The notes under the pieces were generated by a model. It ran no database searches. It had not been told where the DNA came from and saw only the letters and a program-made list of their open reading frames with translations. DNA of 63,791 bases, counting the filler, from Phoronis australis (taxonomy: Eukaryota > Animalia > Phoronida): assembly GCA_002633005.1 (NCBI GenBank). It is 5 parts of 5 records of this genome, joined end to end, with 100 filler letters (N's around TTAATTAATTAA, not from the genome) between each part and the next. Parts side by side here need not be neighbours in the genome. Positions count along the whole stretch, not along the records: positions 15,390 to 45,921 come from NMRA01000042.1; 4 more parts are not named here. One strand, 5' to 3'. Of this stretch, positions 9,952 to 43,269 are shown piece after piece. The position numbers and the translations under genes were made by a program. Numbering within the stretch: position 1 is the first letter of the stretch; every line of letters begins with the position of its first letter.

Positions 9952-12900
9952 TTAAGTGCGGAACGCCTCAGTTTTAAAACCTAAAAGGAGGCTCACCTTT
10001 GAAATGGCGACTGCGTAAATAAGGTGTATTCCCAGTGAAATTAAAAAGGCTTTGTTGCTACCATGGCTGTACAAATTGAGCTCTATTGTACAAAATTCGC
10101 GTAGAATCAGAGTATAGACAACACCTTTATCAACAATAGCTGGTAGTAAATACCTGGCATAAAAACTATCTAACTTAATCTGCTTAGAATTAAAAAATGC
10201 CTCATCAAAATATACACGTTCTAAGTGAAAGTCATTTCTTGCTAAGACGTAGAAGTCACACCATGTTTCACCTGTAATACCGAGTTGACCGATACATTGT
10301 TCGTAGTACTTATGATTTGTTCTTAGTTCCAAACCATTTTCTCCGGCTTTCAAATAATTTAACTCCGTCACGCTGTCTTTTTTTCGTACACTTTATTCCA
10401 AGAAGTCCCCATTTGGGATTAGAGTCGGGGTCGTAGACGCGCCTGTCTGGACTGCATCCTAAATGAGGGACTGATGGGTTTATTATGAAACCGACTTCAT
10501 GTATGTCATTGCCAAAATCTGGTGCATAATTAGCAGCAGCAACAGCTTCATTGTCAATGCCAAACTGCATCGCCTCTGTGACAACAGTCTTTTTCTTTAA
10601 AGGAGCATGCCACCCAAAAAACCTAATTTGTATCAATTTAGATCGAGTAGTTCTATTCCATAACGACACGTACGGTTTCGTTACCTGACACCTGACGGCA
10701 GACGGAGGTGTTGAAATTATCCAATGACGTCGTCGGTTTCACACGCAGTCTGTTCAGCAGTTCACAACACGGGTTACTGGTGTCAGCTTATCGCTTGAAG
10801 TCATCGTTTAACACCCATAAATCATCAAACTTCGATGTAAAACCCTTGAAAATACACCGAGTTCTTATAAAAACGTGTTGTTTTATTTCGCTCTTACGGA
10901 TTTATTATTATTTGGACACACCGTATCCTACAAAGTTCGGCAGGCCAATAAGGTCCGTAGCAGGAGTTTGGGGTCTGTTCCCGGAGATAATTTCGAAGTA
11001 TTTTCCGTGAGATCCAGACAGGAGAACCCCTGTGTTGTTTAGCCTTGTGATTTTTTTAGTTCTAACCACAAAACGCTTGTTATCCTGGCCATTGGCTCGG
11101 AGCCCGATCAGGCCCGTCGCGGCCGGCCTGATTGACTCCGCTGTTATCCCGGCCAGGTGCTCGGAAACTGATCAGACATCACGAACATAAACCAGCCAAA
11201 GTTCAGCGGAAACTAAACTTCCAGTCAAGAAAATACTATACTAGTGAGCCAAAGTAATGTGCACGTGATAATGTTGATGAATTAGCCACGAAACTGCAAA
11301 TCTACTAACTCGTCGGGGGCCGCGAATTCAGGTTCCGCTTTGGCCACAGCACCGTCAGGGCAGAAGTAGTACATTGACAATCATTATTTGAGTAATGTAA
11401 ATGTAAATAAAGATTCCACTAACACCTGGCCGTGGCCGGGATGGAAATCGAGTTGTTTCACAACAGTTTCTGCTAGCAAACACTAAATTAGCATGAGCTC
11501 ACGCGGCCTCGGTGTCCCGTCAATCAGTTTTATTGCACGTAAAGCCGGTAACGCAGTGATTTATTCATTGCTGGCTTCTAAAATCATTTGCACTCACTAA
11601 CACTCCAAAGGCATTGCAAATTGCATCTAATGAGACAGACTTTGTTTCAGTTTTATATAAGTATTGGTTAGGGTGAGAATAACTCATTTTGAAACAGAAC
11701 GCTCAGTAGTAACGCCAACATGGCAACTCGCAATCCCGACTGACTTAGGACGAGCTAGAGATCATCAGTCCCGACTTTGCAGGTGGATCGTTGAGTTTTA
11801 CAGGCTATGAATTAGAACAGGAATACAGTGATGAAGAAATACTAGAGAGGCGCCGTGAACAAGCTCAGACAACGGAACGTATGGAGTTATTTTGTAAGCA
11901 TTTGTCAGGCACTGTCGACGTCTGCAGGCCACAGACAAGGAGATGTTTCACGGCCTCATACTTGCTATTTACAGCGTACATTTCATTCTTCACTACCATG
12001 AACCACTTCCTAATCATTTCGGACTCTCGAGTAAGTAAAAAAACGATATACCCCCTTTCCTCGCAGCTGCTTAGTTCGGACAAGCGGGAACGATGCACCG
12101 CAACATAGCGGCATTCACTCTGCATATGAACCACTGACGTCGCTAGCGTCGTTTCGCACCTTCCTCACAGGTTAACGCGACACCTCTTGGCAAGGTAAGG
12201 TCGACCGTATGCGAGGCGATATGAATATAGACCGATTAAGATGGCAAAAAAGACTAATATAATCGGGTGGCATTCTCCTTTAAAAGGTCCACAGCAAGAG
12301 CTTCAAAGTGGCCTCTCCTTGACGTTATGGCCTTGAAATTGAAAGCCGTTATCCGATGCCTTCTTAACTGATACCACTCTTGGCATTTATTTTGCGCTCT
12401 GGAGTCTTTTTCATACTGTTGTGATTCAATTATAGACGTTTCTTTCGATTGGAAGATTACTTGCTGATCAACAGGAAGTGAATGCGGATCACAATGTAAT
12501 GTTAACGCAGGCAAACTGAAGGCAGGAGGGGTCTCTGGTCCAAACAAAACACAAACTTGATCAGGCTTCTCCTGATAAGACAGCATAGACCCCTTTGGTG
12601 CTTGACCAAATTTATTATCTACCAAGGTCATGTCTTCCATTAGACTCGACAGGTGCACCCACTGTGGTGGTGCAGATTGTGCATTAAATGCAGGCAATAG
12701 TTGCTGAACTGTGTGCTGAACATCACTGAGTGGCACTGGCATTGGGGAGTGGATCTACAGCAGATGGGATAACTGGTTTTATAACCGTCACATCCGTCAC
12801 AGGGCGGGTAGCAAAACCATGTGTTCGTGGGGGGACGTGCCAGTGTTGAGGGGTAGATGTGGATGAAATAATTTCAGGCACCTTGTTGATCTGGAGTTGT

Positions 12901-13990
12901 TGAAAGTTGCTCAGTTGGTACAAGAGTGCCACTTCATGTTGACAGAATCCTTTTCCAGCTTTGCAAGTACAGGTGTGTGATGTTATCTCCCACTCATTTG
13001 GTGAAACCAATCTGAAAAGCGAAAATCAAAAATTATGTTACAATAGCTTGTTGGTAAGGGGGATAATGTAAATAATTTGTTACGATGTTACAGGTTAAGT
13101 TACTACGGCCAATAGACTTTTTATAGCCTAGGAGCTCTGAAAATCTTACTAGTGATCTGGCATTTACCACAAATTGTACAAACACGTCATAAATAGAGCA
13201 TTAGCAAGACCATGAAAAACTTTCCTTCAACACTCCAGTAAATTACACATACTAGTTTTAGAATTAAAGCAGCAGTATACTAACAAGATTAAGGATAACA
13301 CGTGTAATAATTATTCGAAGAGAATGAGCTGTTCCAGACTTCTTTTGACTTTGAAAACATTTTGCTCGAACACTGTGATAAGACAGAGCAAGATCACTTG
13401 CGTATCTGGTAAACCTAATTATGGCCCATTGATAGGCCTGCCTCAATAACTCCCAGACCAAGGTGATAATGTGAACTCTTGGCGTGACCTTGTAACTGAA
13501 AACCAGAGGGTCAATCTAGTGGAAATCTTAAGTCTGACTCATGAATCGTTTGCCTTAGGGAGGCTCAGGTACTGTCACGCTGACGCTGACACTTGCTGAG
13601 AGCCCGAGTCTCTCCTAAGACCAGTCAATAGAATCGGTAGGCCCAAGCGACGAATCTGACAAGAATGGCGAGTAAACAAATCGATTTTTATAAATTACGT
13701 TATCATTGGGTCAATGAAGAAAATAATTACGGTTTCAAATAATATTTAACTATTTTTCAAACTTTAAAAGACGATGCTAATAACAAAATGGGCTCAACTA
13801 CTCTTGCTTAATTTAATAGTTGTCGCACGAACGAGCAACACACACATCGAAATTACGCTTACCTCCGATATCATGGACATACGAATCATAATAGAAACGA
13901 TATCCTCTTTGAAGGGAACTTGTGCGTATTGGTATGTTTTTGGAGATCGATTCAACATCAGACAACTTGATTTTTGGTAACGTTGATAAG
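9952..13990 (-). pseudogene. Transposon-borne SWIM zinc finger + YqaJ (lambda-exonuclease-like) gene, frameshifted and interrupted (ISL2EU-type accessory gene)
   Basis: Pieces in order: STLPKIKLSDVE...GYRFYYDSYVHDI with donor gtaagc at 13862; VRAKCFQSQKK (~13330-13400); SWIM motif CTCKAGKGFCQH (12723-13011); EWYQLRRHRITA; AMQFGIDNE, LGCSPD, LLGIKC; YYEQCIGQLGITGETWCDF. Frameshifts at about 12730 and 10375; Kolobok insertion at 10601-12279. Confidence 0.8.
10601..12279. mobile_element. Non-autonomous Kolobok-type DNA transposon, copy 2 (inverted relative to copy 1)
   Basis: TTAA TSD at 10597-10600 and 12280-12283; TIRs AGGAGCATGCCACCC...GGGTGGCATTCTCCT. Removing the element and one TTAA restores the host reading frame (...AVDLL-KKKTVVTEAMQFG). 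Confidence 0.88.
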
Positions 13991-16560: not shown

Positions 16561-19500
16561 AAATATGACCAAACTGCGGCGATTGTAGTGTTACGGATTA
16601 GGTATTATGCTGAATGCAGGGTTACGCTTTTTCTTATAAATTGTTGATCAAAATACTTTCTACGCGAACCAGGTCATCTGCTCGTATTGTTGACGAGTTG
16701 AAGACATATTCGACAGTGGTGTCTGTCATGTGCAATTAGTCACATCTGGTTTAATTTGTTGATAAGAATATTAACGTCAAGCATAGCCTGATCCTATGCA
16801 CTCACTGGGACTACCAGTTGATTTGTCATTGGTCTGAAAGAATAATTGATGTTATTAAATATATTTTGATTAAAATAAAAAACCAGGCTCGTAATTGAAA
16901 ATAAAGATTATTTGACCATCAATGCTTTCTTGGTTGTAATAATTTTTACGTCTATTTCATGTGTAAGATTTCAAATATCATTCTGGACCAAGTTGAATTC
17001 TAAAATTAAAACACCTAATTCGTTCTTCCAAAACATAACTAGAGAATAGTTTACGTGACACGCGATTGCGCTCTCGTGTCACGCCAGCTATTAAGGCGTC
17101 ATCACGTTTGCACAGTACATTTCTACACAAAACCAGATAAGTGCTGGTGAGTTCTTTTGTTTGTCTATTTTCTGGCGCATACGTGTATTAGCCGTTATTA
17201 TTAGTTATCATTCGTTGTTTATAAAGAGTTCAATTCACAGTATTTGTATATTCATTTTGTATGTTTCAGACGGACATTCGTCTTGCTTAATAAAGCATCG
17301 TTAGAAAAACCCGAGGGTTATTGTCTAATAACATCGTTTTAGAACTCAATTTCAGTTAACTGGACAATGCAATCATAGTTATCATGTTTCTGTAGAAGCC
17401 TCTTTCATCCGAGGGGAACGGTGCCAGTGCCTACTGAGAGGCGATTTTTTCGCCGAGTGAGGGCGGGAACAATCTACCTCCCAATCACCATCAATAGCAC
17501 AACCGCCCTGTTGCAAGCTCTCATAGGCTCTGCCTCAATTTAAAGTAGCCTTTTGTGCTCTTAAAAATTGTCACCTGTGTTACAGGGGACGTGAACTCAG
17601 AGAGATTTTTCACTAGGGGAATTTTTATGCCTCGTTGGGGGAATTTCGCGTGATATTTCAATATGTTTGAGAGGGAAATAGGGCCGATATCGGGCCCCAA
17701 ATTTGAGTGATTGAGGGCCAGTCCTTTTTGGAAAGAAAAATTATAATGTTTCAACCCGTAGCAGGGGCGGATCCAGGTTTTTCATTTAGGGGGGACAGGG
17801 CACAGCAATAAGCAGCATTTCGGCAGATGTGCACGCCCAGCCTAAACTCTGGGGATGCAGGGGTCTTGAATTCTTGGGTTTGCGGACCTGTTGACTAAAA
17901 AAAAACGGTAAACGGGGTTCATTCAGCGCCTATGCGTTGTTTATTCACCCCCCTGGTTGCGCACGTGTGCTAGTCAGCAATTCGCACTCGAACTCAAAAA
18001 TGGGATCTGATACAATTTTAGGAGGGGCGATGTACCCCCCCCCCCCTAAATTCGTAGTCATGAAAACACAGCCTGGCTGGCCCATTCTCTGTCGTTACTA
18101 TATGATGCATAACAATCAACAGACCGACATGCGACAAAATATGATCTAACTTTTCGAAAACATTTATAAATTTTACACGGACATATTTTGCTTCGTANAA
18201 TACACCTCTAAAAATTGCACATCGTCTTTGCGCAAACTACATTGAGATTTAAGTCTCCCGAAAAATGTTGACGATCGGATAGTGTTTAAAAGTCTAATTC
18301 TAAATTTCTCCAGTTAGTGCACAAATGAAGTAAAAGAAAGTAGTTTTGCTTGTCGCGTCAGCTGTTGGTATCATTATCTCGATTTATGACCCACAATGCG
18401 TGACTGGACAAAGCCTTTTCAATTTAGCCGGTGGAGCGTGAGACCCCTGAGGTCCCAATCGAGTCCTCACGACAACTTCGCGTTATGTCGTGCGGCCACG
18501 ACCCAACCAATTACTGTTAACCAATCGTCTACCTTCCAGCGATATTAGGCGACAGCGGTAATACGTGTACGTTTATTAGGTGTCACGATCCAGGGAAATC
18601 TTTACATCAGCTGGTGCACCGAGGAACACATTTTCAAATGGCTGTGCCGTTTCTGTGGAATATTGCCCACTCTGTACACATGCACATGAAAGTAGCCTAA
18701 AATATCAGCGCAATAATCCGTCAAGAGCAAAGGTTAAAACATGTTTGAAACGAAGGACTTGCAAAAAAATTCAATTAATGTTTTTCGTATTCTGACGAAC
18801 CAAGCATAGGATTCATGGTATATAGAAACTTTAAATTTCTTCTACTGCTATTTTAGAGCAGTTGGTTAAAATTTGCTAAAATGGGCGTCATGACCTATTA
18901 AATTTTATCCCGAAAGTAAAAGAAGGCCAGTTTTACAGTAGATGCTAGTTTTTCAAACTAAGACATTCCAGTTGTTAATCATTTCACCTAGGTGTAATAC
19001 TTCCACTAGTTTTGCCTGATGTTCTCGTACAGTCACTCTTAAGTAACCTTCTGGCTCATTGGTTAGTACTGATAACGTCTTCGATCATTCGAAAATTTTC
19101 TGTTGTAATATAAAATTTAAAACAAACAATTCGCTTTCCTGGCTAATTTTTGTAACTTTTATGAAACGAACAGGGATTTGTCATTGCGCTTACATGAATG
19201 CACCATTAATTGGAAATTGGGTCATCTACGTTCGTTACTGTAGCTATTAAGTAAGTCAAGAGTAACCTTATACTCATTAATAGTAATCACAAAAACTTCT
19301 GTTACCAATTAGTGTAGTGATATATAATACATCATTTTTATCGGATAAAAATGAATCGCCAGAAGCCAACTTCCTCTAAATACGTTATTTTCATTTCTCT
19401 TTCGTTATTCAAGGTAGCCCAATCGTCTATAATTCATCGACTCTGTTGTTACAAGCTGGTGAGAACATTTACATTTTTAACCTAACTCAAGGAGGGTACA

Positions 19501-23297: not shown

Positions 23298-23303
23298 TAT
23301 AAA
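23298..23303 (+). promoter_or_regulatory. TATA box of cystine-knot gene A
   Basis: TATAAA 66 nt upstream of the ATG of the first micro-exon; gene B has the same arrangement. Confidence 0.55.
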
Positions 23304-23363
23304 GCTGTTGATCAGCCGTGTAAATCAATGTGGTTGGGCTTTTCAGAAGGCAACGAAAACCTC

Positions 23364-26300
23364 ATGATGAAGATATCATTGGTATGTTCATACCGTCGTT
23401 GGGCACCACATTTCAAGTTATCATTATTCAGATTTTATTGAATTCGAGCCGGTTATTTTTCGACAGTTTTGTACTAACGCTCTTTACATTTACAAATTTA
23501 ATTCAGAAAAAAGACAATGTTTGATGATTGTATTTTTAACATACATGTACGTTTAGCTAGATTTAAAAGCAAAATGTTCAGAATTTCAAACACAAGTCAT
23601 TTGGATCCTCACATTTTCAGGAGCACGAAAAGATTTTCCGCAAACAGCTCACAGTAAGGTGTTGTTTTGCGGGTTTATCTTCAAGGGCAAATGTACGCAA
23701 AATAATGCGCACGAGCCACATGTGGTATACATGTATGAAATAAGATACCCACGAAAACTAGTGGCAGAATACATAGGACTATTCAGTCTCGTGGCTGTGA
23801 CCATCAGTATGACTGTTACGTGAGTATACGTAGGAAAATGCAACTGACGACGAAAGATGGCGTGTCAAGCTGCGCTCCTGATGTCCCTAAATTCGTGGAA
23901 ACAGCCTATATGTAGGTATTTTAAATTATCAAGCAACTTCGCTAATGTAATGCATCTCGACAAGCGCACTAAGCATGTGCATATACATGTACAGGTTTCC
24001 GCCTTTCTTCCAAAAACAATGGTTCGCTTATACACCAGAATCTCTTTGCATATTATTAGACCAACCCTGATGAAAACATTAAAACAGGGTCGTCTGTAAT
24101 GAAGTGATATTAATCACGGTGTACCGGCCTCGTACTGACAGGCCAGATACATCATTGTAAATGGAGAAATATCCAGTGTCCATTTATATCTTGCAAAAAC
24201 CCATATAGTTGTTGTACAGTACGTGGGATTTCTAAAAGGGCGGAAAGACTTTCACCAAAGGGAGAGAAAATATTGGTGGCGAGACAGAGGGAGGGCTGGG
24301 GAAAGGGGAGGCAGCTGCCCAAACAATGAGAAAGGGATACCACGGTGACGACCAGAGGGTCCTCTCACGCCACAGCTGTCGTAAAACTCTTTCATGTACT
24401 ATACCAAATGTATTTGCGAGAACACGACGTTGCATCTACTATGACATAAATTGGACACCAGCCTTTGTTTCCTAATGTTGACAACTCAGGGCGCTAAGCG
24501 GGAAATCAATGTTTTATTATATTTATAAAATCATTGAAACATGACAACTGAAAATACTGCTTTTGGTCTATCTACACTGTTCGCAATTTTGATATAATCA
24601 ACTATATAATCCACACAAATAATTGTGACCAAAACGATTCTCTAAGTTTTTCACGGACTGACTTCCCATGTCTCCGTTTTTCCTGCAGGTCTACGCGAGA
24701 TCACTCAACTATATGTTTTCAGTGATTGCAGCCAATATAGCTCAGTCACTTGCTACTGCATTGTCTGCTCGGTGAACGTAATGAAGTGACTTTAAGTACA
24801 TGCAGATACATTTTTTATCACTTGTTTGCTGGTGTGCCACAAAGTGAATTCTGTGCGGGCCCGAGGCGGGCTGTGTGTCCCATATGATCACTGTAGACCG
24901 AGGCGGGCTGTGTGTTTCCCTGTGGTCACTGTGGTCCGAGGTGGGCTGTGTGTCCCATATGCTCAACGTGGTCCAAGGTGGCTGTGCGTCCCATATGGTC
25001 ATTGTGGTCCCAGGTGGGCTGTGTGTCCCATCTGGTCAATGTGGTCCGAGGGGGGAGTGCTGTGTGTCCCATGTGGTCATTGTAGTCCGAGGTGGGATGT
25101 GTGTCCCATATGGTCAATTCGTAGTTAATAATTGTTACAGACAAAAACTGGCTCTTTGTATCAGGTTAAATTAAGGAAATGTCAAGAACAGTAGCTGTCA
25201 TATTGAGAATGTCTGTTCCAAAACCATACTGCATATGGTGACTTTTTTCAGTTCTTCATTTTGGCTATCACCACCTTCGCACGTGGTCATGACCAAATTG
25301 CGAACGTCGAAAGCGTGCAAGAGGTCAATAGGGATGAAGGGCCGTTAGAACGTGAGCTGTCTGAGGAAATAGCGGAGAACACGGATGCTGAAGAAATGGA
25401 AGCGAGAGCAGCCGTCGACAGCAACGAGGAAGAGGAAGAACAAGTAGAGGACGCTATTTCTGATGTGGAGACACGGGCAAATAGTAAGATTTTACTTACA
25501 TTGTCTTCTGTAATGTTCATAAAAGATTTCGTGACATCGGAGCGGTGAGGAATTGGAATTCATACCGATGGTGAGGCGGCTATGAGATAAGCTGAATGAA
25601 GAGCCAGTGTCTACCCCAGTGGGGCGCCAACAACGCCATTCTCGTTTGGCACTTATTTATTAAAGGGATAGCAAAACCGGTTCTGGCCTGTTAACAGATA
25701 TTAATGAAAACGACATTTCCATCCAGTTTTGTGAAACAAAATAATGACTGTAACCCTCGGCAACCGTCAAAATTATGAAGCAAAAATTGAGGTCACGATA
25801 CTGTTCTGCTTGACCTGGCTTTAGGCTACTTACACAAGAACTGTAGCTAAAGACCACCCACCAAGAATCATAATGTCCGATTTGTGACACAGAGCATGAG
25901 CGCAACCGGGGGGGGGGAGAGCTTGGGGGGCTGGAACGAACCCCCCCCCCCATTTGGCGAAGTGGGCAAAAAGATTAGCTCCAGAGAAACAAAATTTCTG
26001 AAAAAGTATAAAACAAGACAACAGTCCACTAAAAAGACAATGTACAATTCAAAGGTCTGAACTGACCCCCCCCCCCTTTTAGTAAAAGGCCCACATTCAC
26101 AAAAAATTCGAGGCCCCACGTTGTTTAGGCTGGGTGCGTGCATGCAGAGAGTATGAATTTGTAGTTGAATCCTCTTTTTATCACTCAAGTTGGACGCCAC
26201 TGATGCATTCGCAGGTGAAAGTACGACAGATTGCTTGAAATCACAAATACAGTGTTTAACACAATAAAGTAAAACGACGAGCGTCGGTACCAAAATTTAT

Positions 26301-29300
26301 TAAAATATATTTACTAATATATATATATTAAAATATATTTCAATACCGAAGCTCGTTGTTTTACTTTATACTATTTCACTTTTCGTAGCCGTCAGTAACC
26401 GCACGAAATTCCAACACTTATTTCATTTATTTAGGGTTTAGTACCTTTTTAAGAGCGGGATCAGGCTAATATTCCCCAGAGTACTGTAGAATTTGATAAA
26501 ATTGTATGCGTCGTGCTTGAGTCCTCACATTGAATGTGTGTCGTGCCCAAGTACGTAGAATGTCTTATCATTGTATGTGTCGTGCTTGGCTAGACTGAAA
26601 TCGTTAGTATTACAATGTCCATGTGTAGTGAACGAGTTCCCGTTTGAATTTCTTAGCAGTGTATGAGCCATGCTTTCGAACGTTAAGAAAAACTGGTGCA
26701 TTAAGTTGTATAAAAACAACCTCTGAACTAGCGTACGCAGTTTATTTCTGTATTCTTGCAAGAAGGGTCAAAAGATAATACTACGTTCTTGGGATGAGAT
26801 TTATTCGAACTTGAAAGCTCTTCAAATTCTAAATTATGTTTGCGCAATTTCTTATAACAACAATTTTCAAGTACAAAAACACAGATTATTGTTTACAGAA
26901 GGATATATCCACACTGTTGCAAATAATTATGATGATGTTATTGTCGAACAGGAAGGTGGAAAGAACTGTTCAGACCTCATGGATTTAACTGTGGATGTTG
27001 TCCTCGACGCACAAAAGTGACACATGCGTACAGTCCGCGTTTACCTGGCAAGTTCTGTCCAATGGTTAAGCCGAAATCTCTCTATATGACCGACTGCTAG
27101 TAAGTTCGATTCCATAGCAGCATACATGACGGCGTCCTGTCGTTCAGCAACTTTTCCAGACGTGAGGGGTTCTGAACGTGCGATAACATCTGGCTCCGCT
27201 GCCCAGCATAGTCTTTTGTCCCGTATGATAACAAGCACGCCAATTATCTCCCAGGCTTCGAAGGGTTACTGAAACCTGGCAGAATGGATTGTCTTAACTT
27301 CTGTTGTAGTTGGGCGATTTTGGCGATTCAAAAACTAAACATGATCAGCATTTGACAAAGAGTTCGAAAATTCTACTGGTTTATGTTGAAATGTTTTATA
27401 ACTTAACTTTCATTTCCAACAGTAAAGCCCAGTCAGGCTAGATACGATCTGATCGGAAATTAGAGCAACTATCGAACAAAAGAGAGCCGGTCCTCCAACC
27501 ATCAATGCCAGTATAGAGTCAATCAGTCGTGTAAGATACTGGCTACAGGGGTAAACTTCCCAAGTTGTTGTTGGGCCACAGAATCGAACAACTTGGGAGC
27601 AACAGGAAAACGCCGTAATGATTTATACTATTGTCTCAAATAGTGTTACTGGTACTGTATATCGTTTCCCGGTATGAGTTCTTTTAAGAACATAAAAGTT
27701 CTGACAATGCAGTGTACACGTGGGCACTTACAATTACACGTGTCTTCGTTGATTAACAGATTTCTGTAGCATTTTACTTACGAGAGGCTGAAAGCTATTG
27801 TTAACAAGCCAATTAATTTGCTTTACATCAGCCTGTCAAGAGCGCAAGAGGCGTGGTCAGCCATTCACAGGACAATCTACCTGACGCTAAGTTTAAAGCG
27901 GATATGGACATGGCACCACACCATGTCAAAAACTTTATACCACTTACCGTTATCAAATTAGAAATAAACAGCTAGTTCCTCATGCGGAACGGAAGAGATG
28001 TCTTGGTCCAAGAAGAACAGACAGTGCCTTAAGGCTCGACACTAGTCTCAAAGGGTGGCATGTTTCTGCGCACTGAGTAAGGTTTCCGAAGAAACAACGA
28101 TCTAATAGTTGTTCCCAAGCAGCAACCTAGGTTCTTCAGCAATACGCCCCCTATCGGGATAATGTGAGTGGTATAAACCGACTAGTTTTTGGCATAAGAC
28201 GATCATTTTAAATTGCTTCCATCTTCATTATTTGAAATGACCTACTTTGATTGGTTTCACGGCGGAAAAGCGCGATTTTGGGGTCTTTGCTGGATGGGTT
28301 GGACTTCGCGAAGTCATCAGAAACTTTTACCAGAGCTATAAAACAGCAAAAGTCATTGGGCTTTTGTGATTGTTATACAAAGTGCCGTTGTCTGCCACAC
28401 ATTTGCTGAAACCAAGAGCGGTGACTTCCAGTTAATGCGTACTCTGCCATGAACCGAGTTTCGTTTAGTTCCATCAGCAGCGCCGTTGATCGACTGCAAC
28501 CGCGTTTTTGCAAGTTCAAGTCTGCGCTGAGATTGACCTCACAAAATCACTTTTCTTGCCGATGTTGTAACTTTAATGTTGTGGAAGTACGTATACTATG
28601 ACCTCCACGTATATTCAGTCAGAAATGAGGGTTGAGTTTCGAAGACACAAGAATCTCGCTAAGGAAGCTATTGTAATCACGTGCTTCGCTAATTGCATTT
28701 CATGACAATATCTCGCGAAGTCTTGTAAGTTCTTGCCTTTCTCGCAAGACACTAACCGGTTTAGGGAGCGCACGCCGCTGTTACCCGGTCACGTGCGGTG
28801 TTGGTCGACGAAACGTCTAGCGCTTTAAAGAGTTTTCAAAGAAATTTGGAATGTTCTCCACAGTTGTTATGAAGCATGTCTGGATTGTAAAATAATCATC
28901 CTTTGTTATGTTCAGACGCCTTCAAAAGAATTCGCAATCCCAAATTAAAGAAATTTGCCATGCAAAAGACCAGTTCTAAAAAGCAACCTCTTGTCTGTTT
29001 CCGCATTCGCTAATTGAAACCATCGACGTCTACTCTTGTTTCCAGATGCCTCCAGTATTTCAAGTAAAACTTAGGTCAGTACATGTAGATGTGTTGAAAA
29101 TGACTAAATGCATGTATGGATGGCTTACTTTGGATGTTGTCTCTCAAATCAACGACATAAACTTTGCGACAAAAGCACGTTTGACAAAATGGCAAGGGGA
29201 AAAAGAGATGTGTGTGGAACATACTGGCGACTTCTTTCATAACCCAGTTTTTTCTGGATTAGCACCCTGTTTGTTTTGATTCATTTAGGCCTCGTAACTG

Positions 29301-29860
29301 CCTCAGGTAACGCTTTGATTTGCAAAATTTGGGCGAAGTTGTGTTACAAGGGGTAAGTACATTCTCCGGCGTGTCTGGAAATACATATTTTCTGATAGTC
29401 GGGTTACCTCAGTCCCAATGTGCCAACAGGTATCGCCATCTGGCGCTCGGTCACTCAACCAACCCAATTCCAATCACGTTGTTTCTTCCACTAAAGTTAC
29501 TAGCACATCAAGCCAACACACTTAGCAATAAATCAAGAAAGTCGTCACACCACTTTCAATTCCAGCAAGGAACTAGTTAATACTAATTTTATAACTGTAA
29601 GTGGTCTAAATTAAATTGAAAAGTGTTGGTGCATAAACCATTGAACAACAGTTACCATTCTAAGTTTCTTTTCCAGCAAACCACCCGGTCACTGCGTGAA
29701 AGTTAGCACCGTCAAAGGTAGACTTGTTAGTCGCGTAGTTGGAGTGTGCAAACATCTTTACAGTCGCACCATAACCATTACAGTGCGCTGTCGTAACAAC
29801 AGGTTTTACAGGGTGCGGTTGAGGCACTACGTCCGATGTGCGTGTATTCATTACCTCTGA
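23364..29860 (+). CDS. Secreted cystine-knot-like prepro-protein, paralogue A (193 aa, 4 exons)
   Basis: Exons 23364-23381, 25252-25483, 26952-27099, 29677-29860; all introns GT-AG, phases 0/1/2, open frame. Protein: MMKISLFFILAITTFARG-HDQ...(acidic)...VETRANRR-WKELFRPHGFNCGCCPRRTKVTHAYSPRLPGKFCPMVKPKSLYMTDCYKPPGHCVKVSTVKGRLVSRVVGVCKHLYSRTITITVRCRNNRFYRVRLRHYVRCACIHYL*. AATAAA at 29951. Paralogue B independently supports the exon structure. Confidence 0.9.
24854..25115 (+). repeat. ~37-bp minisatellite (~7 units) in intron 1 of gene A
   Basis: Approximate unit GTGGTCCGAGGTGGGCTGTGTGTCCCATATGGTCACT. Confidence 0.9.
25895..26144. mobile_element. MITE with CATG(A/C)GCGCA-type TIRs and possible 5-bp TSD CAGAG (intron 2 of gene A)
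   Basis: CATGAGCGCAACC...GGGTGCGTGCATG flanked by CAGAG on both sides; related copy at 37278-37535. Confidence 0.65.
26264..26369. repeat. Inverted repeat with AT-rich loop
   Basis: ATAAAGTAAAACGACGAGCGTCGGTA ... TACCGAAGCTCGTTGTTTTACTTTAT. Confidence 0.75.
27127..27620 (+). repeat. ~500-bp dispersed repeat (inverted copy at 55887-56425)
   Basis: Shared blocks such as AATCAGTCGTGTAAGATA.TGGCTACAGGGGTAAACTTCCCAAG and GTTCTGAACGTG.GATAACATCT. Confidence 0.8.
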
Positions 29861-31159
29861 GTAGCCAAGACAGAAGACGGAATGACTGGGTGAAAATTTT
29901 CGTGCTCTTGCAGCCATGTCCCTGTTGAATACAGCTGTGATTGCTCTTGCAATAAAGCAAAATTACTTAAGCATTACAAGAGTGTCGTTACTCAGGAAAT
30001 GTAGAATCGCAAACTGTCATCGCTCTCTTCCTCAGTGCTTTTCTTGCTCAATCAGGTTTCTACAGTGGCGGGGTACAGTGACTGGGAACGGAAATGAGAA
30101 ATTATTTTTTCCTTACTCAAGCGCCCGACTAGTCCGTCGAGCGCCCAAGTCATAACTCGGGCACTCAAATTATTTCTCATGCTCTTTCCCAGCCACCGTA
30201 GGTTTCCCTATACATTTTTCATGAACAGAGAAGTAAACGCAAATTCGGCAGGTTTTGAAGGCGGGCTGTTTTCCATACAGATGGCCAGATGATCAAGAAA
30301 CCTTCTTTCATATCAATATTAGTAAATGCAAGGAAACACTCACCGTCCTACAAATTACTACAGCTGAAGTTAGGAAACTTCTTGAGGGCATCGATAGCCA
30401 CAAATCAAACAGTATTGAATTCGTAACAAAGTATATCATAGATATATAGGCAAAGAATTTCCTGTTCCTCTCACAACAATGTATTTTGTTTTGACCAACT
30501 GAAAGGTAGTGATAATGGTATCAATTTGGGAGAAGGGCCCACTTGTTTTTAGCAACAAAGAGTATGATCTCCTAATGAAATCATTCATACAATTACTGTT
30601 TGGAAAAATAACAATGAAAAATATATTTTCTTTGATTTATGCTATGTCTTTGGCAGTAAAAGTATATATTTTCTAAATGTAGAAACCCTGGTTGATTTGA
30701 TTATTGACTTTATACCAATATCCTATTAAATGGGTCACGCGACCATGAAATTTTTGTGAAGTTTAACAAAAAAGGTATATTCATAAGAAAACAACGGTAC
30801 CAATAACATGACCAATTTCATTTGATAGAATTGTTTTGGGAAAAATCTCAAAAACAGTCTTTTAAATGATCTCTTCGTCTTCGTTTCATGCAGATTTCGA
30901 TTTTTTCATAAAAAATCATAAAGTTCCTATTTTGGTAACCTCTTCACAAAAGTGGAACTTTTTGAAAATAATTCCAGCGTTTTGTCAAACAAAGTTCAAA
31001 GCATAATATCAGAAGTTTGATACGAATCCAATCAGCCGTTTCCGAGATATGGCATCATGTTTTGGAGTTAGCCAATTTGGACATTTTTCTAGGGTTCTAT
31101 GCAATCTTAAAGATGCATATTTTCATTAAATTGTGAATTTGCAAATGAAGTACTAATTT

Positions 31160-33190
31160 TCAAACAACCCCGTGTCCTCCAGTGTGCTGGAAACCACCCG
31201 AGAATCAGTTACCATTACAATCTCGCAGAAGTCAAGTTTTGCGAGACTATTTGTATGTAAATGAGTATGATAATAATTCATTATGGAGGACGAAGACCCG
31301 ATGTCGGCCAAGAGAACAAAGAAGGTCGGTATCAAACAATTTGTCCCACACAAAATGTCCAAGCCAATCCGCAGCAAGTCATGGATCACTAGGGACATAC
31401 AGAAACTCATGACCAAGCTCGACAAGATATTCTCTGATATGAAGCGGAACAGCGGAGACCCCAAACGTCGATACAAGCAAGTAAAAGCTCATATACAAAG
31501 ACGTACAAAACGGTATTACTGGAAACTTATTGAAGATGTAAATCACTGCACCAACAACAAACAGTTCTGTTCGAACATATAAAACCAAAAGCAACGCAAT
31601 GATCGAACTGGAATATTTGCCATGAAAATTGGAGGCAAAATTATGTAAAACAAAAAAGGCGGGGATGACTGCTTAATTAACCAATTCCAGTCAGTCTTCT
31701 TGGAAAGAATACCACCCACTTGACTTGAAAACAATTAGTCGGAATACAGCACCGTGGCAAACCTTTTCGACTATGCTCGACATTACCATAAATACTACTT
31801 TTGTCATTAACCTACTTGATCATCTGGACAAGTCCCCGGGTCCAGACGTCATTAATCCTAGTGTTCTCAAAGAACCTGCTCCTGTCATCGCTCCTGCTCA
31901 AAGCAAGGTTTTTCAAAAATTATTTGACAGCGGCACGGCGCCTTTAGACTGGAAAACTGGCAATGTATCTCCAATCTTCAAGGAGGGTCAACAATTTTAC
32001 CCAGCTAGCTACAAAGCCATCTCTGTAACATAGATAGCTAGTAAGCTAATGGAACACGTCTTATTCAGCAACATCGTGGACCAAGCGTCATCTAACAACA
32101 TCCTGTATAACCTCCATCATGGCTTCATAGCAAAACGATCATGCGAGACCCAATTCGTACAATTTGCACATGATCTCGTAAGCATTTTATGCAAACAGAT
32201 TTACTGATCATGGACTTCTCGAAAGCTTTTGGCAAAGTAAACCATCATAAATTATTGTCCAAGCTATTGACTTACGGTGACAGAGGGAAACTATTCCTGT
32301 GAATTTAGTCTTTCTTGTTAGGTTGTTCACAGAAAGTGGACCTCGATAGAGATAAATCTAACACCATTGGTGTATCATCTGAAGTCCCTCAAGGATCAGT
32401 CATCGGACACTGTCTGTTTTTGTTTTATATGAAATGACATTGCTGAAAACCTGACATCCAAATCTCACCTCTTTGCAGATGACACCATAACCTATCTGAC
32501 AATTAAGAGCAATTCTGATTCAGCGAAGCTCCAACAAGACCTCGACAGGCTTACCTTGGAGACTAGATCGCTGATGAAACTCCATCCTGATAAGTGCCAG
32601 GTACTACCTGTTTACAGGGGTAAAACATTTGTCATTTCTCATTATCGACTTCACAGTCAGACACTCGAGATCGTTGACTCAGCTAAGTACCTCGGACTTA
32701 CTTACACATCTGACTTATCATGAATCTCACATGTAGATTCCATCACTACAAAAGTCAGCAACAAACTGGGCCTTCCACGTAGGAACGTATGCAGTTGGGC
32801 AATTCTTGTGTGAAAGAAAATGCCTTAAAATCTCGTGTAAGCCCCATCTTAGAGTACTGCTCTAGCATCTGGGACCTACATGTATACACTGAACGAAATG
32901 TCAAAAAATGACATGGTCTAGCGCAGAGCATCCAGATGTGTAACTAATATATATAGACAAAGCTCCGGTGTGACGGACATGCTTCATCAGCTCAACTGGA
33001 GGTCTCTGGAAAATATAAGCGCTAGCATGAAACTCACAAAATTACGATGTGGTTGCAAGCAACGATGCTGTCTTCTTAACCCCATTATCGCCTACTCGCT
33101 CTTCTAGGCAAAGCCCTCCACTCTTATCCCGCATTCCATATAGTAGACAAATTTTTCATTTACATATATATAGCATCTTCCCAACCACCA
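31160..33190 (+). mobile_element. Degenerate CR1/L2-group LINE reverse transcriptase fragment
   Basis: Motifs KSPGPD, DWKTGNVSPIFK, HGFIAKRSCETQ, MDFSKAF, VPQGSV, LFADDT, LQQDLDRL and KYLGLT, with many stops and frameshifts. Confidence 0.9.
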
Positions 33191-37687: not shown

Positions 37688-37695
37688 TATAAAAA
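37688..37695 (+). promoter_or_regulatory. TATA box of cystine-knot gene B
   Basis: TATAAAAA 55 nt upstream of the ATG at 37743. Confidence 0.55.
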
Positions 37696-37742
37696 GAAGC
37701 GCGCTTGGAGTTACTGTTGCATCTTCGTGGATTCAAGAAGAA

Positions 37743-40700
37743 ATGAAGACACCGATGGTAAATATGCTTTACTCTCATGCCCCAATTAACTTTTGTCTAG
37801 TTAAGTCGCTTTGTAGGTTTTATAAAATTGTCTTGTTCACATTTGTACCATCTCTCCCCAACGTTAGCACCCTATCCATGGAGATGCCATGCTTTTTCAT
37901 GCTCTTAAACATCCTTGAGGCAACAGTAGCTCCATGGACAAAAATAAAGAATTGTAATAACCTACAATTTCCTGTGATACGGTTGAAGCTCAAAGAAACA
38001 AGTTCACCAAACGCAGCAGCATGATTATTTCCAGCACAACGGAGTTAGCCTAAATGTCAGCTATGAGAAAAAACGGTTTATTGTTGGCCTTTTATTTGGA
38101 CTAAACGTGAGTGAAAATAGGAAAAAAAACACTAATTCCAAAGAAAAGTAGGAGAAAATAGGAGTCTCTCAAAAAATAGGAAAATGAGGAAAAATAGGAA
38201 ACTTAACACCCTGCGAAAATTGCGGTGTAGGCCTATCGATTTCGAAAAACACGAGACCTGGAGTTTAATATCTGTAATCTAAACTTTACATGGCAATCTT
38301 TGAGTCAATCACAAATTCACAAATTTGTACTTGAATCATGCGGTGTGATTGGTTAAATGTGAATTCTGTGTCTGAACCAAGTCTGAGTTCGAAAATAAAA
38401 CCCTGCATCTAGATTATTATTTTTACATCAAATATTTCATCTGAATAAATGTCATGTCCACAGTCTAACTTGCGTATTTCAGAAACATTTTATTGTACCC
38501 AACGGAATTCAAAACTAAAACCCTTTGTGATTTAAATTCTTTAAATTCTTTCCATTGACAGAAACAGTTTGAGTCGATCTTACATACATGTAGCTATGTC
38601 CCAGTGAAAAATATCAAACTTATCATAGATCATTAAAACTGTGCATTGAAAAGCGATCAACAAGAAAAATCGAAATAACAAAAAATGGGTGACGATGGCA
38701 GCTCACAGTTTTGTTACCCCATTTCCATAATGGTTACGTAAACCATAAAAAGACATGACTGATTTTTAGTCCTGGCTCATTTTTAAAAAAGCACATCAGT
38801 TTCAGCCAATGTTTTTGTGAAACCTGCTCAAAGGAAGGTGCAAGGTTTGAAACGACATCGTCTGCCAAGAAATAAACAAACTCAGCATCATTTTTGCTCG
38901 TCTAAACTAAGGTGGATTTTTGTTGTTTTTTTTTTGAATCGTGAGCAACTAAAAATACCACTCCTCCGACTTGATTTTCAAAAAACACAAACCACAACTA
39001 AAAACCGTATGCTTTTTGGCTAATACCATCAGCTGAGCTAAACACAGAAAACACCTGACCACATAGTATCCAAACATTCGTTTTGTATTTTTAAAAACTT
39101 TAATATGTTTATGTCGCCATGACCAGCATTCATTCAAAAATAGCTCTAGGCTTAGATCTGATCTCTTGTCATAATAAAACTGGTATCAAATACTTCCTTA
39201 CTAAGATGTTTGAGAAGTTAAGCCTGGGTTTTGAATCCAAGTCCGGCGCACAAAATGAACCACAATATCAAGTCGAACCCTGTTCTTCTTAACGGGAGGA
39301 AGAAACAGGTTCACACCAACTTTTAACGGTAGACCCATGTGGTCTAAATTTAAAATTATTTAGTGACGGGAGGTCGGTTCATAGCAGCTTCAAAGTACGC
39401 AGTGAACATTTTTTTTAGATTCTGTTGGTCTTGACAGTCACAGCTGTCGCGGCTGTTCATGTCCAAGGAGACACTGTGAATGCCCAGAGTGTCCATACTT
39501 TTGGAGATGATGCGACAATGACGGCACGTCAGCTAGAAGACGCTATAGACAGCTACAACGAGGAAAGGAAGGCAGACGAAATTAAAGAGCAAGAGGACGT
39601 TTCCGAATTGCATATGCATAGCAAAGCTAAACAACGTACGTTATCTAACTATTATGTTCACTACACGCTTTTGCCTTGTGTATTAAGCCCCAGCAATATA
39701 TATATGATCGATCTGCTGAAATTGTGTCCTCCACAGGTCCTCTAGATTGGCTGACCTTACACGATATCAGTGACGTCAGAACCAAGTTACTACCAAAAGG
39801 GACGAATTATACATATAGATAAATTTATTGCCATATTACCAGAATGAAGCAAGACGCTATATGATGGTTGGCGCACTACTAAAAACCGGCAAACCATTCG
39901 ATAAGCGCAGTTTATTGAATATGTGCGGTTAAAATATAAGCAACTGTACTTGCTATGCAAAATTTGCGGTTCGTGTGCAATTTTCGGTCAACATTTTTGT
40001 AGAGTACAACAAGACACATACACTGTAGGGTTATTTACCGTGCACGGCTCGGGCATGCCCGTGCACAAAAATTTCTCCCACGCACGCTATTCGAATCTCG
40101 CTACGAATGCCTCCCCTGTTGAACTTACTTTACTCATCGTTCATGTCTACTGTCTTCGTATGTCGTGATCGCGAGTATTAACAAAGAATCGACAATTTTC
40201 GCAACTACATTTGGTAAAATATTAAACATTTACAGTATATGCAGTGAAAGAAAGGCCATTTCTATTTGATTTCAGGATATATAAATAACTTATTGAAAAG
40301 AAAATGAAACACCAACCGTGAAAGGTTAGCACGAAAATACCGCAACAGTTTTTACGACAAGCTTGTCCCTTAGCGGGAAGGAGTCAGGAATAACGTCCAA
40401 GAGCAGGGTTGGCAGTGCTTGAGCGAAGAAATGTGTATACAAGACGCAGAAAAGTGGACCTGTAGGGGGTTATGTGTCCGCGGGAAGGGAATAGAGGGCA
40501 CAAGAAAGGAGTTTGGGAGCGGGTAGTCCAGAACTGCGCGTGGACAGCGTGCATTAAGTCAGGTGCCTTAATTAAGTAAACACAGTCGAATTTGATTGTA
40601 AGAACATGACCAAAGTTGAATATAGAGGGATGTCCTGCCCTCTCCCAGCTTCAATCAAAGGTGAGAGAATGCCACGAGCGAGACGTTTTTGACGGTGATG

Positions 40701-42084
40701 CGAACGTACTCCTTCGAAAACAGTGGTTGGCAAAACTTGCTTCCTGCTTAGTTTACCAATGTTTGGGCTTCCTTCGAAAACAGTGGTTGGCAAAACTTGC
40801 TTCCTGCCTAGTTTACCAATGTTTGGGATATAAACAAACAAATTCAGTTCTAATTCGGATTGAGGTCCATTCCACTCGCGTGTACGCCGCGAAATTCCAA
40901 TTAAAATTTCAACAGACCTAACTGGCAAAGCCATAATTACTAAGTCTCTGTACTGTGTATTTCAGCGAGCTGGAAGGAACTCTTCAGACCAAAAGACTAC
41001 AATTGCGGATGCTGCCCTTTGACCCTGAGTGTTACACACGCGAGTCACTCCAGCCTCCCAGGTGGAAGGTGTCCCATCATTGTTCCACAACCTTTGAACA
41101 TGACCGGATGTTCTTAGTAAGTGTCACAACACCCTTTCCCAGCGCTACGAGCAGTAACAACGTCTAAATACTACGAATCTGGTTTCTCGTTGTTTTAAAA
41201 GCCTGAGGCAATACCAGACATTGCGAGGGGTTACGTACGGAGATTGTTAATGCCTTTGAGAATTGTTTCCTTAATTAAAGCTTTTTTCGCCTGGCCTGTT
41301 TAGCTGGCTGAAAAGGAAACTCTTAAACGGACATTTTACTCTCATTAACTAAGTCTCATAATATTGACTACCGTGACATGATTCCATTTCACTGTTACCT
41401 ATAAGATCATCGATACCATCAGCGACTCAAGTACACGCTTCAGACTATATTGAGATTTTCAAACCCAAAAATGCGTGGGTCAGCATAACTGTCGCACTTT
41501 GAGGATTGCGACAGTTTGTGCAAGTGCGTCATTTTGGTGGTCTAGCACACCTTTTTATGGTTCCTCGTACGCATGGCAAGAATAACGAATTGATGAAATG
41601 TTTACATAATTCGCACTCTGTAGATTTATCATGCATGAATTTCGCAAAATTTATGAATGGAAAAGGGACCAGTGAGAGGACAGTGAAAGCATAAACATAT
41701 AGTGCAAGCCATATCTACACTTTGGTTCTGCGCTATTTTGTATCTACTTAGTTGGAATAGTCTCCTCAAATAACAAATTTATGAAATGAATAGAATTTAC
41801 TGAGTATTCAACAGTATGTGTATAAATGTAAAACTATTGCTTCCAGGTCGTATTGCTGTGTGTTATTAAGCACCAAGCACCATAATCTCCCCTGTTTGGT
41901 GTTTTTCAGTCACCCAGACTATTGCGTCAAAGTTGACTCCAACGGCAAGACTTCGGAAGTGGTTGGAGTTTGTAGACATCTATATGACCGGGTTATAACA
42001 GTGATAGTCCGATGTGAAGACAAGAAGTTCTACTTCGTGAACTTGAGAAATTACGTTCGATGTGCTTGTATTCATTTCAACTAG
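37743..42084 (+). CDS. Secreted cystine-knot-like prepro-protein, paralogue B (185 aa, 4 exons)
   Basis: Exons 37743-37757, 39419-39635, 40966-41116, 41910-42084; GT-AG introns with phases 0/1/2 as in gene A. Protein: MKTPMILLVLTVTAVAAVHVQG-DTV...(acidic)...HSKAKQPS-WKELFRPKDYNCGCCPLTLSVTHASHSSLPGGRCPIIVPQPLNMTGCSYHPDYCVKVDSNGKTSEVVGVCRHLYDRVITVIVRCEDKKFYFVNLRNYVRCACIHFN*. AATAAA at 42235. Confidence 0.9.
40711..40827 (+). repeat. 60-bp tandem duplication in intron 2 of gene B
   Basis: CCTTCGAAAACAGTGGTTGGCAAAACTTGCTTCCTGC(T/C)TAGTTTACCAATGTTTGGG x2. Confidence 0.9.
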
Positions 42085-42390
42085 CGGTCAGTATGACAAC
42101 AACTCAGATAGAAATTGACATTTATTTGCGTAACTACAAAGTTTAGGTTTCATTTGTGTAGGACCTGTCTGTACACTTAGCCAAATATGAACGAAACGTA
42201 GAACTTTACTCAGCAGATATGCATATTTCCTGAAAATAAAAATTCCTAAAAATTAGATTTTTGACTTGATATAAACTATTTAGGTAACTTGACCTTGTGT
42301 TTTATAAATATTTTACTTTAAGCTCTTTTGGCATGTCGTTTCACACTGAACACAGAATTGTTTACGCTTGATATTTTACGCAGAATACAT

Positions 42391-43269
42391 ATAGATTATT
42401 ACATGGCGAAGTCGTTATCCCCCGTTATCTAGAGCCCGAGTGGATTTTGGAGAATTATCGCCCGAGGGGCGTAAGCCCCGAGGGTGATAATTCTACAAAA
42501 TCCACGAGGGCTCTAGATAAGGGGGATAACGGCTGAGAACATGTAATAATCTATTTATACCACATACTAAACGAGAAACATTGCAATGAATCGATTTACC
42601 TTTTCTGACTCTCCACGGCTTTGCAACTACTTTCTTTGTCAGAGGACCGGGGTCGGAGGTCGTGACCTTTTAAGAAAAGCCCGGCTATATATATTTTTGT
42701 CAAATAATGCTTTTACTCAAAACCAATTGAAAACTTAAATATTATAGAAATAAATTGAATTTATAAATTAAGGTTTACCAACTATTATAGCTCAAAACAC
42801 GTTTTTTTCACGCTAAGCTTCGACCGGGAAATTATCGTCTGCTAAAGTAGGTTACCACTGGTAACTGAATATAATTCTCAAGTCAAGGATCCTGACGACA
42901 CGATACCCGCATTCAAACTAGAGATCGGTGATTTACAAGTAAGAGGACATGAGAGAAAAATTTCACCGAATTCAGATATCATTTTTATGGAAATTATGTG
43001 TCTTATTTTTCGTAGCGTATAAGTACAGTACAATGCGGTTTGTTGAACGTGAGATTATTGCGCGTGCTCATTTAAGTATTCTATTTTCACACTTGATGAC
43101 GTCAGTCGCTGCGTGGTGTAGTGGTTAAAGTCGGAGGCCAGCAACATTAGGGTCCCGGGTTCGACCCCGTCCTCGGTTTCCCGCCAAATCGTTATCTCAC
43201 TAGTGAGATAACTTTATGGGTTATTACACGGTTGTATCTGCCATTTGACGCTAATATTGTGGTATAAAT
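42391..43269. mobile_element. Non-autonomous element with a long terminal hairpin and short subterminal inverted repeats (Crypton-like architecture)
   Basis: A ~164-bp palindrome at 42391-42554 centred on GGGGCGTAAGCCCC; ATTTATACCACA (42553) is inverted as TGTGGTATAAAT (43258-43269). The family call rests on architecture only. Confidence 0.45.
43107..43178 (+). pseudogene. tRNA-derived sequence (Pol III A/B boxes, broken cloverleaf)
   Basis: A box TGGTGTAGTGG at 43114 and B box GGTTCGACCCC at 43158; the anticodon stem does not pair. Confidence 0.55.

What the first reader, a model, noticed from the sequence alone, without database searches (positions are those of the whole stretch)
25252..29860. 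Paralogue A: very cationic mature domain behind a charge-matched acidic propeptide and RxxRR site
Seen (hand count): the 108-aa mature domain has 14 R + 9 K against 2 D/E (about +21). The pro-region has 24 D/E against 6 R (about -18). The junction T-R-A-N-R-R|W is assembled across intron 2. Established: acidic propieces neutralising cationic Cys-rich peptides until convertase cleavage occur in defensins and toxins. Inference: a membrane-active or polyanion-binding effector built on a growth-factor-like fold.
Basis: partly seen in the sequence, partly recalled or inferred. Interest (0 to 1): 0.75.

Follow-up and report, generated by a model that had tools for sequence, protein, structure and literature searches.

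The report
Orphan cationic cystine-knot-like secreted protein
A spliced, expressed gene, likely of an invertebrate animal, encodes a probably secreted cysteine-rich protein whose strongly positive back half sits behind an almost equally negative front half; it likely folds like a cystine-knot growth factor and, if cut free, would stick to negatively charged surfaces, and the only relative we found is a much less charged neighbouring copy.

Summary
All counts are exact (mature 108 aa, +21; pro-region -18). RNA reads confirm the splice that builds the RANRR|W junction and add the missing first exon, giving a 193-aa precursor with a signal-like start. Paralogue B is also expressed. It keeps all ten cysteines and the WKELFRP start, but is far less charged on both sides (-8/+5) and has no basic site at that junction. 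The cysteine spacing of the back half equals that of Cerberus/GPA2, so a growth-factor cystine knot is likely. The ring is C-x6-C, not C-x-G-x-C, and no homologue was found, so it joins no named family. The fold could not be confirmed. The site is a dibasic RR, not the prototypical furin motif. An acidic pro-piece before a basic mature domain is known from BDNF and defensins, so it does not single out an antimicrobial role. Best reading: a surface-tethered, polyanion-binding ligand or ligand antagonist (0.45). A direct antimicrobial effector is the main rival (0.25).

The parts
23298..23303 (+). TATA-like box of gene A
   Evidence: TATAAA about 36-41 nt before the place where 85 molecules end in X1
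23339..23381 (+). Gene A exon 1 (main); start codon at 23364, six codons of the signal peptide
   Evidence: joint to 25252 in 317, 55, 2 reads; 5' ends pile at 23339; phase 0
17126..17146 (+). Minor alternative first exon of gene A, non-coding in frame (start approximate)
   Evidence: joint to 25252 in 29, 29, 0 reads, letters between not known; in-frame TAA 9 nt before the donor; such a transcript's first in-frame ATG lies inside the pro-region
25252..25483 (+). Gene A exon 2: rest of signal peptide and acidic pro-region (24 D/E, 6 R counted to R85)
25474..26959 (+). Candidate processing site R81-A-N-R84-R85|W86, split by intron 2 (25484-26951) inside the R84 codon
   Evidence: cleavage itself not tested
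26952..27099 (+). Gene A exon 3: RR, conserved N-terminal WKELFRP, CGCC, predicted finger 1 (5 Cys)
27423..27614 (+). Minor cassette exon inside a dispersed repeat; brings a stop at codon 139
   Evidence: joints in 25 and 23 reads (5' side), 32 and 19 reads (3' side) in X1, X2; stop; 27127-27628 matches 55879-56422 at 77%
29677..29860 (+). Gene A exon 4 coding part: end of ring, loop 2, predicted finger 2 with C-x13-C-x15-C-x-C (5 Cys), stop
29861..29972 (+). 3' UTR with AATAAA at 29951
   Evidence: molecule ends at 29971-29972
37737..37757 (+). Paralogue B exon 1, start codon at 37743, TATAAA at 37688
   Evidence: joint to 39419 in 9, 27, 0 reads
39419..39635 (+). Paralogue B exon 2: signal and milder acidic pro-region (-8)
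   Evidence: joint 39635->40966 in 11, 43, 0 reads
40966..41116 (+). Paralogue B exon 3; no basic residue at P1-P3 before WKELFRP
41910..42084 (+). Paralogue B exon 4 to the stop; mature part net +5
   Evidence: joint 41116->41910 in 21, 20, 0 reads

Best explanation
Gene A is transcribed and spliced and encodes a 193-aa precursor that is likely secreted, with an acidic pro-region that likely shields a +21, ten-cysteine domain predicted to be a divergent growth-factor-type cystine knot, which, once probably cut at RR, would bind heparan-sulfate-like polyanions and likely act close to its source as a ligand or ligand antagonist. Shown: expression, splicing, charges, cysteine spacing, and a tandem paralogue with the same frame but low charge. 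Inferred: secretion (about 0.95), cystine knot (about 0.75), cleavage at RR by a dibasic-cutting convertase (about 0.6), pro-region as folding aid and charge shield (about 0.7), polyanion binding of the free domain (about 0.9), and signalling or antagonism as the main job. In this reading A is the tethered, short-range version and B the more diffusible version of one duplicated protein.
For: Splicing and expression in 2 of 3 raw-read runs. Hydrophobic N-terminus, Kyte-Doolittle 11-mer 2.47 at residues 6-16. Cys gaps 1,0,18,12,6,17,13,15,1; the last three equal the Cerberus and GPA2 rows, and the C3-C4 gap of 17 is close to their relatives' 18-19 (PMC3224965 supplement 1). The exact back-half spacing arose in 68 of 200,000 shuffles, the family-wide range in 953 of 200,000. 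A and B share 61 of 106 aligned mature residues, including all Cys and WKELFRP, while synonymous sites are saturated (pS 0.76, dN 0.39): long purifying selection on a fold that B keeps at only +5. Basic residues are densest in the predicted fingers (finger 2: 9 basic, 0 acidic of 33), where CAN antagonists carry their heparin sites (PMC6154108). Acidic pro-peptide binding a basic mature knot is shown for BDNF (pI 5.2 and 9.6, KD about 42 nM; PMC5454954).
Against: The ring is C-x6-C and B lacks the ring Gly, so the published eight-membered pattern fails in both. The model of exon 4 alone shows three short strands rather than one long hairpin, at mean pLDDT 55.8. No homologue, receptor or partner gene was found. 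RANRR|W is not the prototypical furin motif, and B has no site there. Expression of A is high for a signalling ligand (roughly 190-376 reads per kb per million in X1), and +21 is more than tethering would need (my judgement); both fit an abundant effector. Charge rose at about 20 positions in A against 4 the other way, spread over the whole domain rather than in one patch.
Confidence: 0.45

Rival explanations
1. A is a direct antimicrobial or membrane-active effector: a knot-like scaffold made polycationic after duplication, kept harmless by the acidic pro-piece until cleavage, as in alpha-defensins.
For: Net +21 on 108 aa with a balancing -18 pro-piece; pro and mature charge move together between A and B, the pattern described for alpha-defensins and cathelicidins (PMC4571063, passages). 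High, sample-restricted expression, about 30-fold above B in X1 and 3-fold in X2. A strongly amphipathic beta-periodic stretch in the last strand (moment 1.04 at 170 degrees in A, 0.65 in B). No homologue found, as is common for lineage-restricted defence genes (inference).
Against: Charge balance also occurs in BDNF. The charge covariation rests on two genes. No strong amphipathic helix (best moment 0.65). No kappaB-like site near either promoter (5 in the window, none within 1.5 kb upstream; pattern recalled). The samples are coded, so immune tissue or induction could not be checked.
Confidence: 0.25
2. A is a structural secretion (adhesive, mucus, clot or matrix component): the polycation condenses with polyanions after the pro-piece is removed, and the two spare N-terminal cysteines cross-link it into polymers.
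For: High, restricted expression; two Cys beyond the knot and the finger link sit in a C-G-C-C motif too tight for an easy internal bond (inference). Coagulogen as a polymerising knot protein is recalled, not read (one search gave no usable paper).
Against: No repeats or low-complexity tract in the mature part; B keeps the same Cys at low charge and lower expression.
Confidence: 0.12
3. The precursor is secreted uncut (net +3); the acidic region stays bound as a chaperone or regulatory arm, like the long N-termini of Gremlin and SOSD, and RR is incidental.
For: B has no basic residue at P1-P3 of the same junction though it is expressed and conserved; Ala at P4; Gremlin and SOSD have extended N-termini (PMC4079206, passages).
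Against: RR sits exactly where A/B conservation begins and where the charge flips. B has an RK pair 24 residues further up that could serve instead.
Confidence: 0.1
4. The domain is not a growth-factor knot but another disulfide-rich fold, for example a venom or defensive-secretion protein.
For: Ring motif fails; no Pfam or PDB sequence match for the single exons; pre-pro-mature layout with an acidic pro-piece is common in toxins (recalled).
Against: Back-half spacing matches the CAN/GPA2 rows exactly; saturated dS with conserved protein is unlike the fast change typical of venom paralogues (recalled expectation); only two copies in 64 kb.
Confidence: 0.08

Closest known systems
CAN/DAN-family BMP antagonists (Cerberus, Gremlin, DAN, sclerostin) and GPA2/GPB5
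   Same: C4-x13-C-x15-C5-x-C6 identical to hCer1 and hGPA2; an extra Cys in each finger that could form the loop 1-loop 3 bond; C3-C4 gap 17 (15 in B) against 18-19 in Cer1, GPB5, GPH-beta; long N-terminal region; basic finger 2.
   Different: Ring C-x6-C instead of C-x-G-x-C; finger 1 longer (18+12 against 13-16 + 8-9); no Cys just before C4; extra C-x-C before C1; no sequence match found.
BDNF and other neurotrophin precursors
   Same: Signal, acidic pro-peptide, basic mature domain of about 110 aa; pro-peptide binds the mature protein in BDNF (PMC5454954).
   Different: The NGF family keeps only the six knot cysteines (PMC4079206); this protein has ten. The charge split here is larger (+21/-18). 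No canonical R-X-K/R-R site.
TGF-beta/GDF8-type mature domains
   Same: Pro-region, basic site, about 110-aa mature part ending shortly after C-x-C; a Cys pair at C1 with a further Cys before it; C1-C2 gap 31 against 26-28 and C4-C5 gap 29 against 30-31.
   Different: N-terminal pattern C-1-C-C against C-7/8-C-C; ring not C-x-G-x-C; finger-linking Cys absent from TGF-beta; pro-region only about 67 aa (TGF-beta pro-domains are much larger; recalled).
Alpha-defensin and cathelicidin precursors (charge-balance design)
   Same: Anionic pro-piece that offsets a cationic mature part, with charges that vary together between paralogues (PMC4571063).
   Different: Mature part is 108 aa with 10 Cys, not a short six-Cys or helical peptide; no sequence or spacing likeness; activity untested.

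Membership tests
Cystine-knot growth factor superfamily | Secreted protein with signal peptide | tested here: met
   Met + basic residue + hydrophobic stretch (KD 2.47 in A, 2.8 in B), first exon shown by reads; no SignalP run
Cystine-knot growth factor superfamily | Six knot cysteines in order, ending in C5-x-C6, with family-like gaps | tested here: met
   C15, C47, C54, C72, C102, C104 of the mature part give gaps 31, 6, 17, 29, 1 against 23-28, 3, 18-32, 22-32, 1 in the table; the assignment of C1-C3 is my choice
Cystine-knot growth factor superfamily | Disulfides 1-4, 2-5, 3-6 with bond 1-4 through the ring | not testable with these tools
   needs disulfide mapping or a model of the whole spliced domain
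Cystine-knot growth factor superfamily | Two beta-hairpin fingers in the 3D fold | tested here: inconclusive
   only single exons were folded: pLDDT 55.8 and 40.5; models too weak to judge
CAN/DAN, GPH and TGF-beta (eight-membered ring) | Ring C2-x-G-x-C3 | tested here: not met
   C-x6-C in both paralogues; Gly two before C3 in A only; published pattern fails
CAN/DAN and GPA2/GPB5 | Extra Cys pair linking loops 1 and 3, with C4-x13/14-C-x15/18-C5 | tested here: met
   C34 and C86; C72-x13-C86-x15-C102; the bond itself is inferred
CAN/DAN, GPH, TGF-beta, NGF, PDGF, IL-17, Spaetzle | Match to the family profile | tested here: inconclusive
   no such Pfam match for any single exon; 48-60 aa fragments lose sensitivity and the spliced domain was not scanned
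NGF/neurotrophin family | Only the six knot cysteines in the mature domain | tested here: not met
   ten Cys against the statement in PMC4079206
Prototypical furin substrate | R-X-K/R-R directly before the cut | tested here: not met
   P4-P1 is A-N-R-R for a cut before W86; R-A-N-R fits only the minimal R-X-X-R (recalled) one residue earlier
Defensin-type antimicrobial precursor | Anionic pro-piece balancing a cationic mature part | tested here: met
   -18/+21 in A, -8/+5 in B
Defensin-type antimicrobial precursor | Short mature peptide with six-cysteine defensin frame | tested here: not met
   108 aa, 10 Cys; six-Cys frame described in PMC4571063
Defensin-type antimicrobial precursor | Microbicidal activity released by cleavage | not testable with these tools
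   needs bench assay

The most novel reading that the evidence does not exclude
A lineage-restricted family of cystine-knot proteins with an 11-residue ring, in which one duplicate was turned from a mild ligand into an abundant polycationic antimicrobial or adhesive effector by gaining, together, about 20 charge-raising changes, a stronger acidic shield and an RR release site built across an intron.
Probability: 0.22. Interest if true: 0.68.

Novelty: new variant of a known kind. Interest (0 to 1): 0.45.

Why it matters
If the knot is real, this is a growth-factor-type scaffold with a ring size and cysteine set outside the families compared here, and without a detectable relative in the protein collections searched. 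The A/B pair is a ready natural experiment: same frame, but +21/-18 with an RR site against +5/-8 without. It lets one test directly whether charge alone switches such a protein between diffusible ligand, tethered ligand and microbe-killing effector, and whether pro-piece charge follows mature charge outside defensins. The precursor design itself (acidic pro-piece, basic mature part) is not new.

Full report
Setting. The window is eukaryotic DNA of about 40% GC with assembly gaps. The other long frames that I scanned are transposon remnants: SWIM/YqaJ-type pieces at 10.3-13.0 kb, a decayed reverse transcriptase near 32.5 kb and a Tc5/DDE element at 62.8-63.7 kb (6 of 20 frames had a Pfam row). 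No whole genome is held. That the organism is an invertebrate animal is my inference from introns, repeats and the protein type.

Check of the observation. Joining the three exons in the finding gives an open frame with canonical splice sites. None of 50,000 shuffles separates charge as strongly. Three raw RNA runs with the same species label, about a fifth of each read, confirm the model: joints 25483->26952 in 332, 137, 0 reads and 27099->29677 in 280, 94, 0 reads, on the expected strand. The fourth run (contigs) showed only repeat-derived pieces. The reads add a first exon at 23339-23381 with the start codon, a TATA-like box before it and a poly(A) signal at 29951. The precursor is 193 aa. 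No difference inside the coding exons appears among the 40 best-supported rows; 554 rows were not shown.

The paralogue as control. One further copy lies 8 kb downstream in the same direction; tblastn finds no third copy in the window. It has the same four-exon plan and intron phases 0, 1, 2 and is spliced in the same two runs. The mature parts share 61 of 106 aligned residues, all ten cysteines and the WKELFRP start, while synonymous sites are saturated (pS 0.76, dN 0.39). The duplication is therefore old and the protein is conserved. B differs in three linked ways: mature charge +5, pro charge -8, and Q-P-S in place of N-R-R before the Trp. Both whole pro-proteins are near neutral (+3, -3). 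This supports real charge matching, but on two genes only, and the direction of change cannot be told without an outgroup. A is basic at 13 aligned positions where B is not, B is acidic at 7 where A is not (2 positions count in both lists), and 4 go the other way. Rough expression is 190-376, 74-139 and at most 1 reads per kb per million for A in X1, X2, X3, and 12, 41, 0 for B (computed from bin depths and all letters read). The tissues are not known.

What fold? Sequence searches with the single exons found nothing. The spliced domain was not searched or folded remotely, and this is the main gap. The evidence is cysteine spacing. The gaps are 1,0,18,12,6,17,13,15,1. The published table for eight-ring knots (PMC3224965, first quarter of the text and supplement 1) gives C4-13-C-15-C5-1-C6 for Cerberus and GPA2, the same as here. 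That exact pattern arose in 68 of 200,000 shuffles, the family range in 953. A pattern for the whole domain, widened after the fact to fit the query, arose in 2, which I do not count as an independent test. The reading is: knot C15, C47, C54, C72, C102, C104; finger link C34-C86; two spare cysteines C12 and C14 that may join chains. Against membership in any eight-ring family: the C2-C3 stretch has six residues, not x-G-x, making an 11-residue ring, and B has no Gly there. The paper lists rings of 8, 9 and 10; larger rings in the NGF family are recalled. Exon-only models were too poor to help, and the exon-4 model shows three strands, not one hairpin. I put the knot at about 0.75.

The processing site. 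For a cut before Trp the P4-P1 residues are A-N-R-R. The prototypical furin motif is R-X-K/R-R, and mono- or dibasic sites are described as poor furin substrates in the viral examples that I read (PMC6682551, passages). So this is a dibasic site, suited to PC1/3- or PC2-type enzymes of regulated secretion, overlapped by a minimal R-X-X-R one residue earlier (both recalled). Its position at the start of A/B conservation and at the charge flip favours use; its absence in B shows that the family does not need it there. B has an RK pair at 55-56 instead.

How it likely works. After entry into the secretory path the acidic, cysteine-free pro-region would help the domain fold and would keep a +21 surface from sticking to membranes and cargo. 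Cleavage would release a domain that binds polyanions near the secreting cell. That much is shared by the first two explanations. They differ in the target. Precedent for signalling: BDNF is basic, its pro-peptide acidic, and the two bind at about 42 nM (PMC5454954, passages); Gremlin, PRDC and sclerostin bind heparan sulfate through basic residues in finger 2, which limits diffusion (PMC6154108, passages; PMC8522476, passages and section 5). Precedent for defence: charge balance in alpha-defensins and cathelicidins (PMC4571063, passages). I favour a tethered ligand or antagonist (0.45) because the fold and N-terminal motif are kept in a paralogue that is barely cationic, which points to a shape-specific partner. 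The effector reading (0.25) draws on the size of the charge, its spread over the whole domain, the amphipathic last strand and the high expression. The two can hold together.

Comparison and novelty. It works like a cystine-knot pro-protein of the BDNF or CAN type in design, but fails a defining feature of each named family tested (ring motif, cysteine number). Divergent knots with mixed features are known in basal animals (PMC4079206, passages), and invertebrate IL-17-like knots vary in their disulfides (PMC11087794, passages). Five literature searches on such proteins (listings only) showed no paper on this family, but word searches cannot find an unnamed gene, so I do not claim that it is unpublished. 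The alignments and sequence sets in the supplements of PMC4079206 and PMC11087794 were not read and could hold relatives. PMC10136312 (passages) added nothing used here. An unchecked note of this scan on orphan knot-like pairs in Trichoplax suggests that such orphans are not rare.

Verdict. Observation confirmed; interpretation partly supported. A real, expressed, orphan pair of likely cystine-knot proteins with an unusual cysteine set, one of them extremely cationic behind a matched acidic pro-region. New variant of a known kind; interest 0.45.

Noticed in passing
window 17126-17146 joined to 25252: Minor first exon 8 kb upstream (29 of 346 first-exon joints in X1, 29 of 84 in X2) skips the start codon; the first in-frame ATG then lies in the pro-region behind three short upstream frames, which would give a 139-aa form without signal peptide, or a non-coding isoform.
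   Followed up: partly
window 27423-27614: Cassette exon inside a dispersed repeat (second copy at 55879-56422) is included in about 8% (X1) and 20% (X2) of joints and stops the protein after five cysteines: likely an exonised repeat acting as a poison exon.
   Followed up: yes
window 37737-42084: Paralogue B is expressed, lacks the RR site, has one N-glycosylation sequon that A lacks, and its ratio to A differs tenfold between X1 and X2.
   Followed up: yes
window 9952-13025 (-): Broken SWIM / YqaJ-like recombinase frames, probably a decayed DNA transposon, flanked by duplicated stretches near 8-9 kb and 10.7-12.1 kb.
   Followed up: partly
window 31277-33000 (+): Decayed LINE-type reverse transcriptase between genes A and B.
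   Followed up: partly
window 62759-63728 (-): Tc5/pogo-type transposase (HTH and DDE_1) in pieces.
   Followed up: partly
window 49948-50664 (-): 238-codon open frame, Ser/Thr-rich with a 12-nt repeat, ending in what looks like the start of an F-box-like motif (recalled); no Pfam match.
   Followed up: no
window 24861-25118: 37-nt tandem repeat (6.9 copies) just before exon 2 of A; it reads as a Cys/Gly/Pro-rich frame but is intronic by the reads.
   Followed up: partly
window 42385-43268: About 880-nt element right after gene B, read on both strands in all three runs with sharp loose ends at both borders: likely a high-copy non-autonomous transposon.
   Followed up: no
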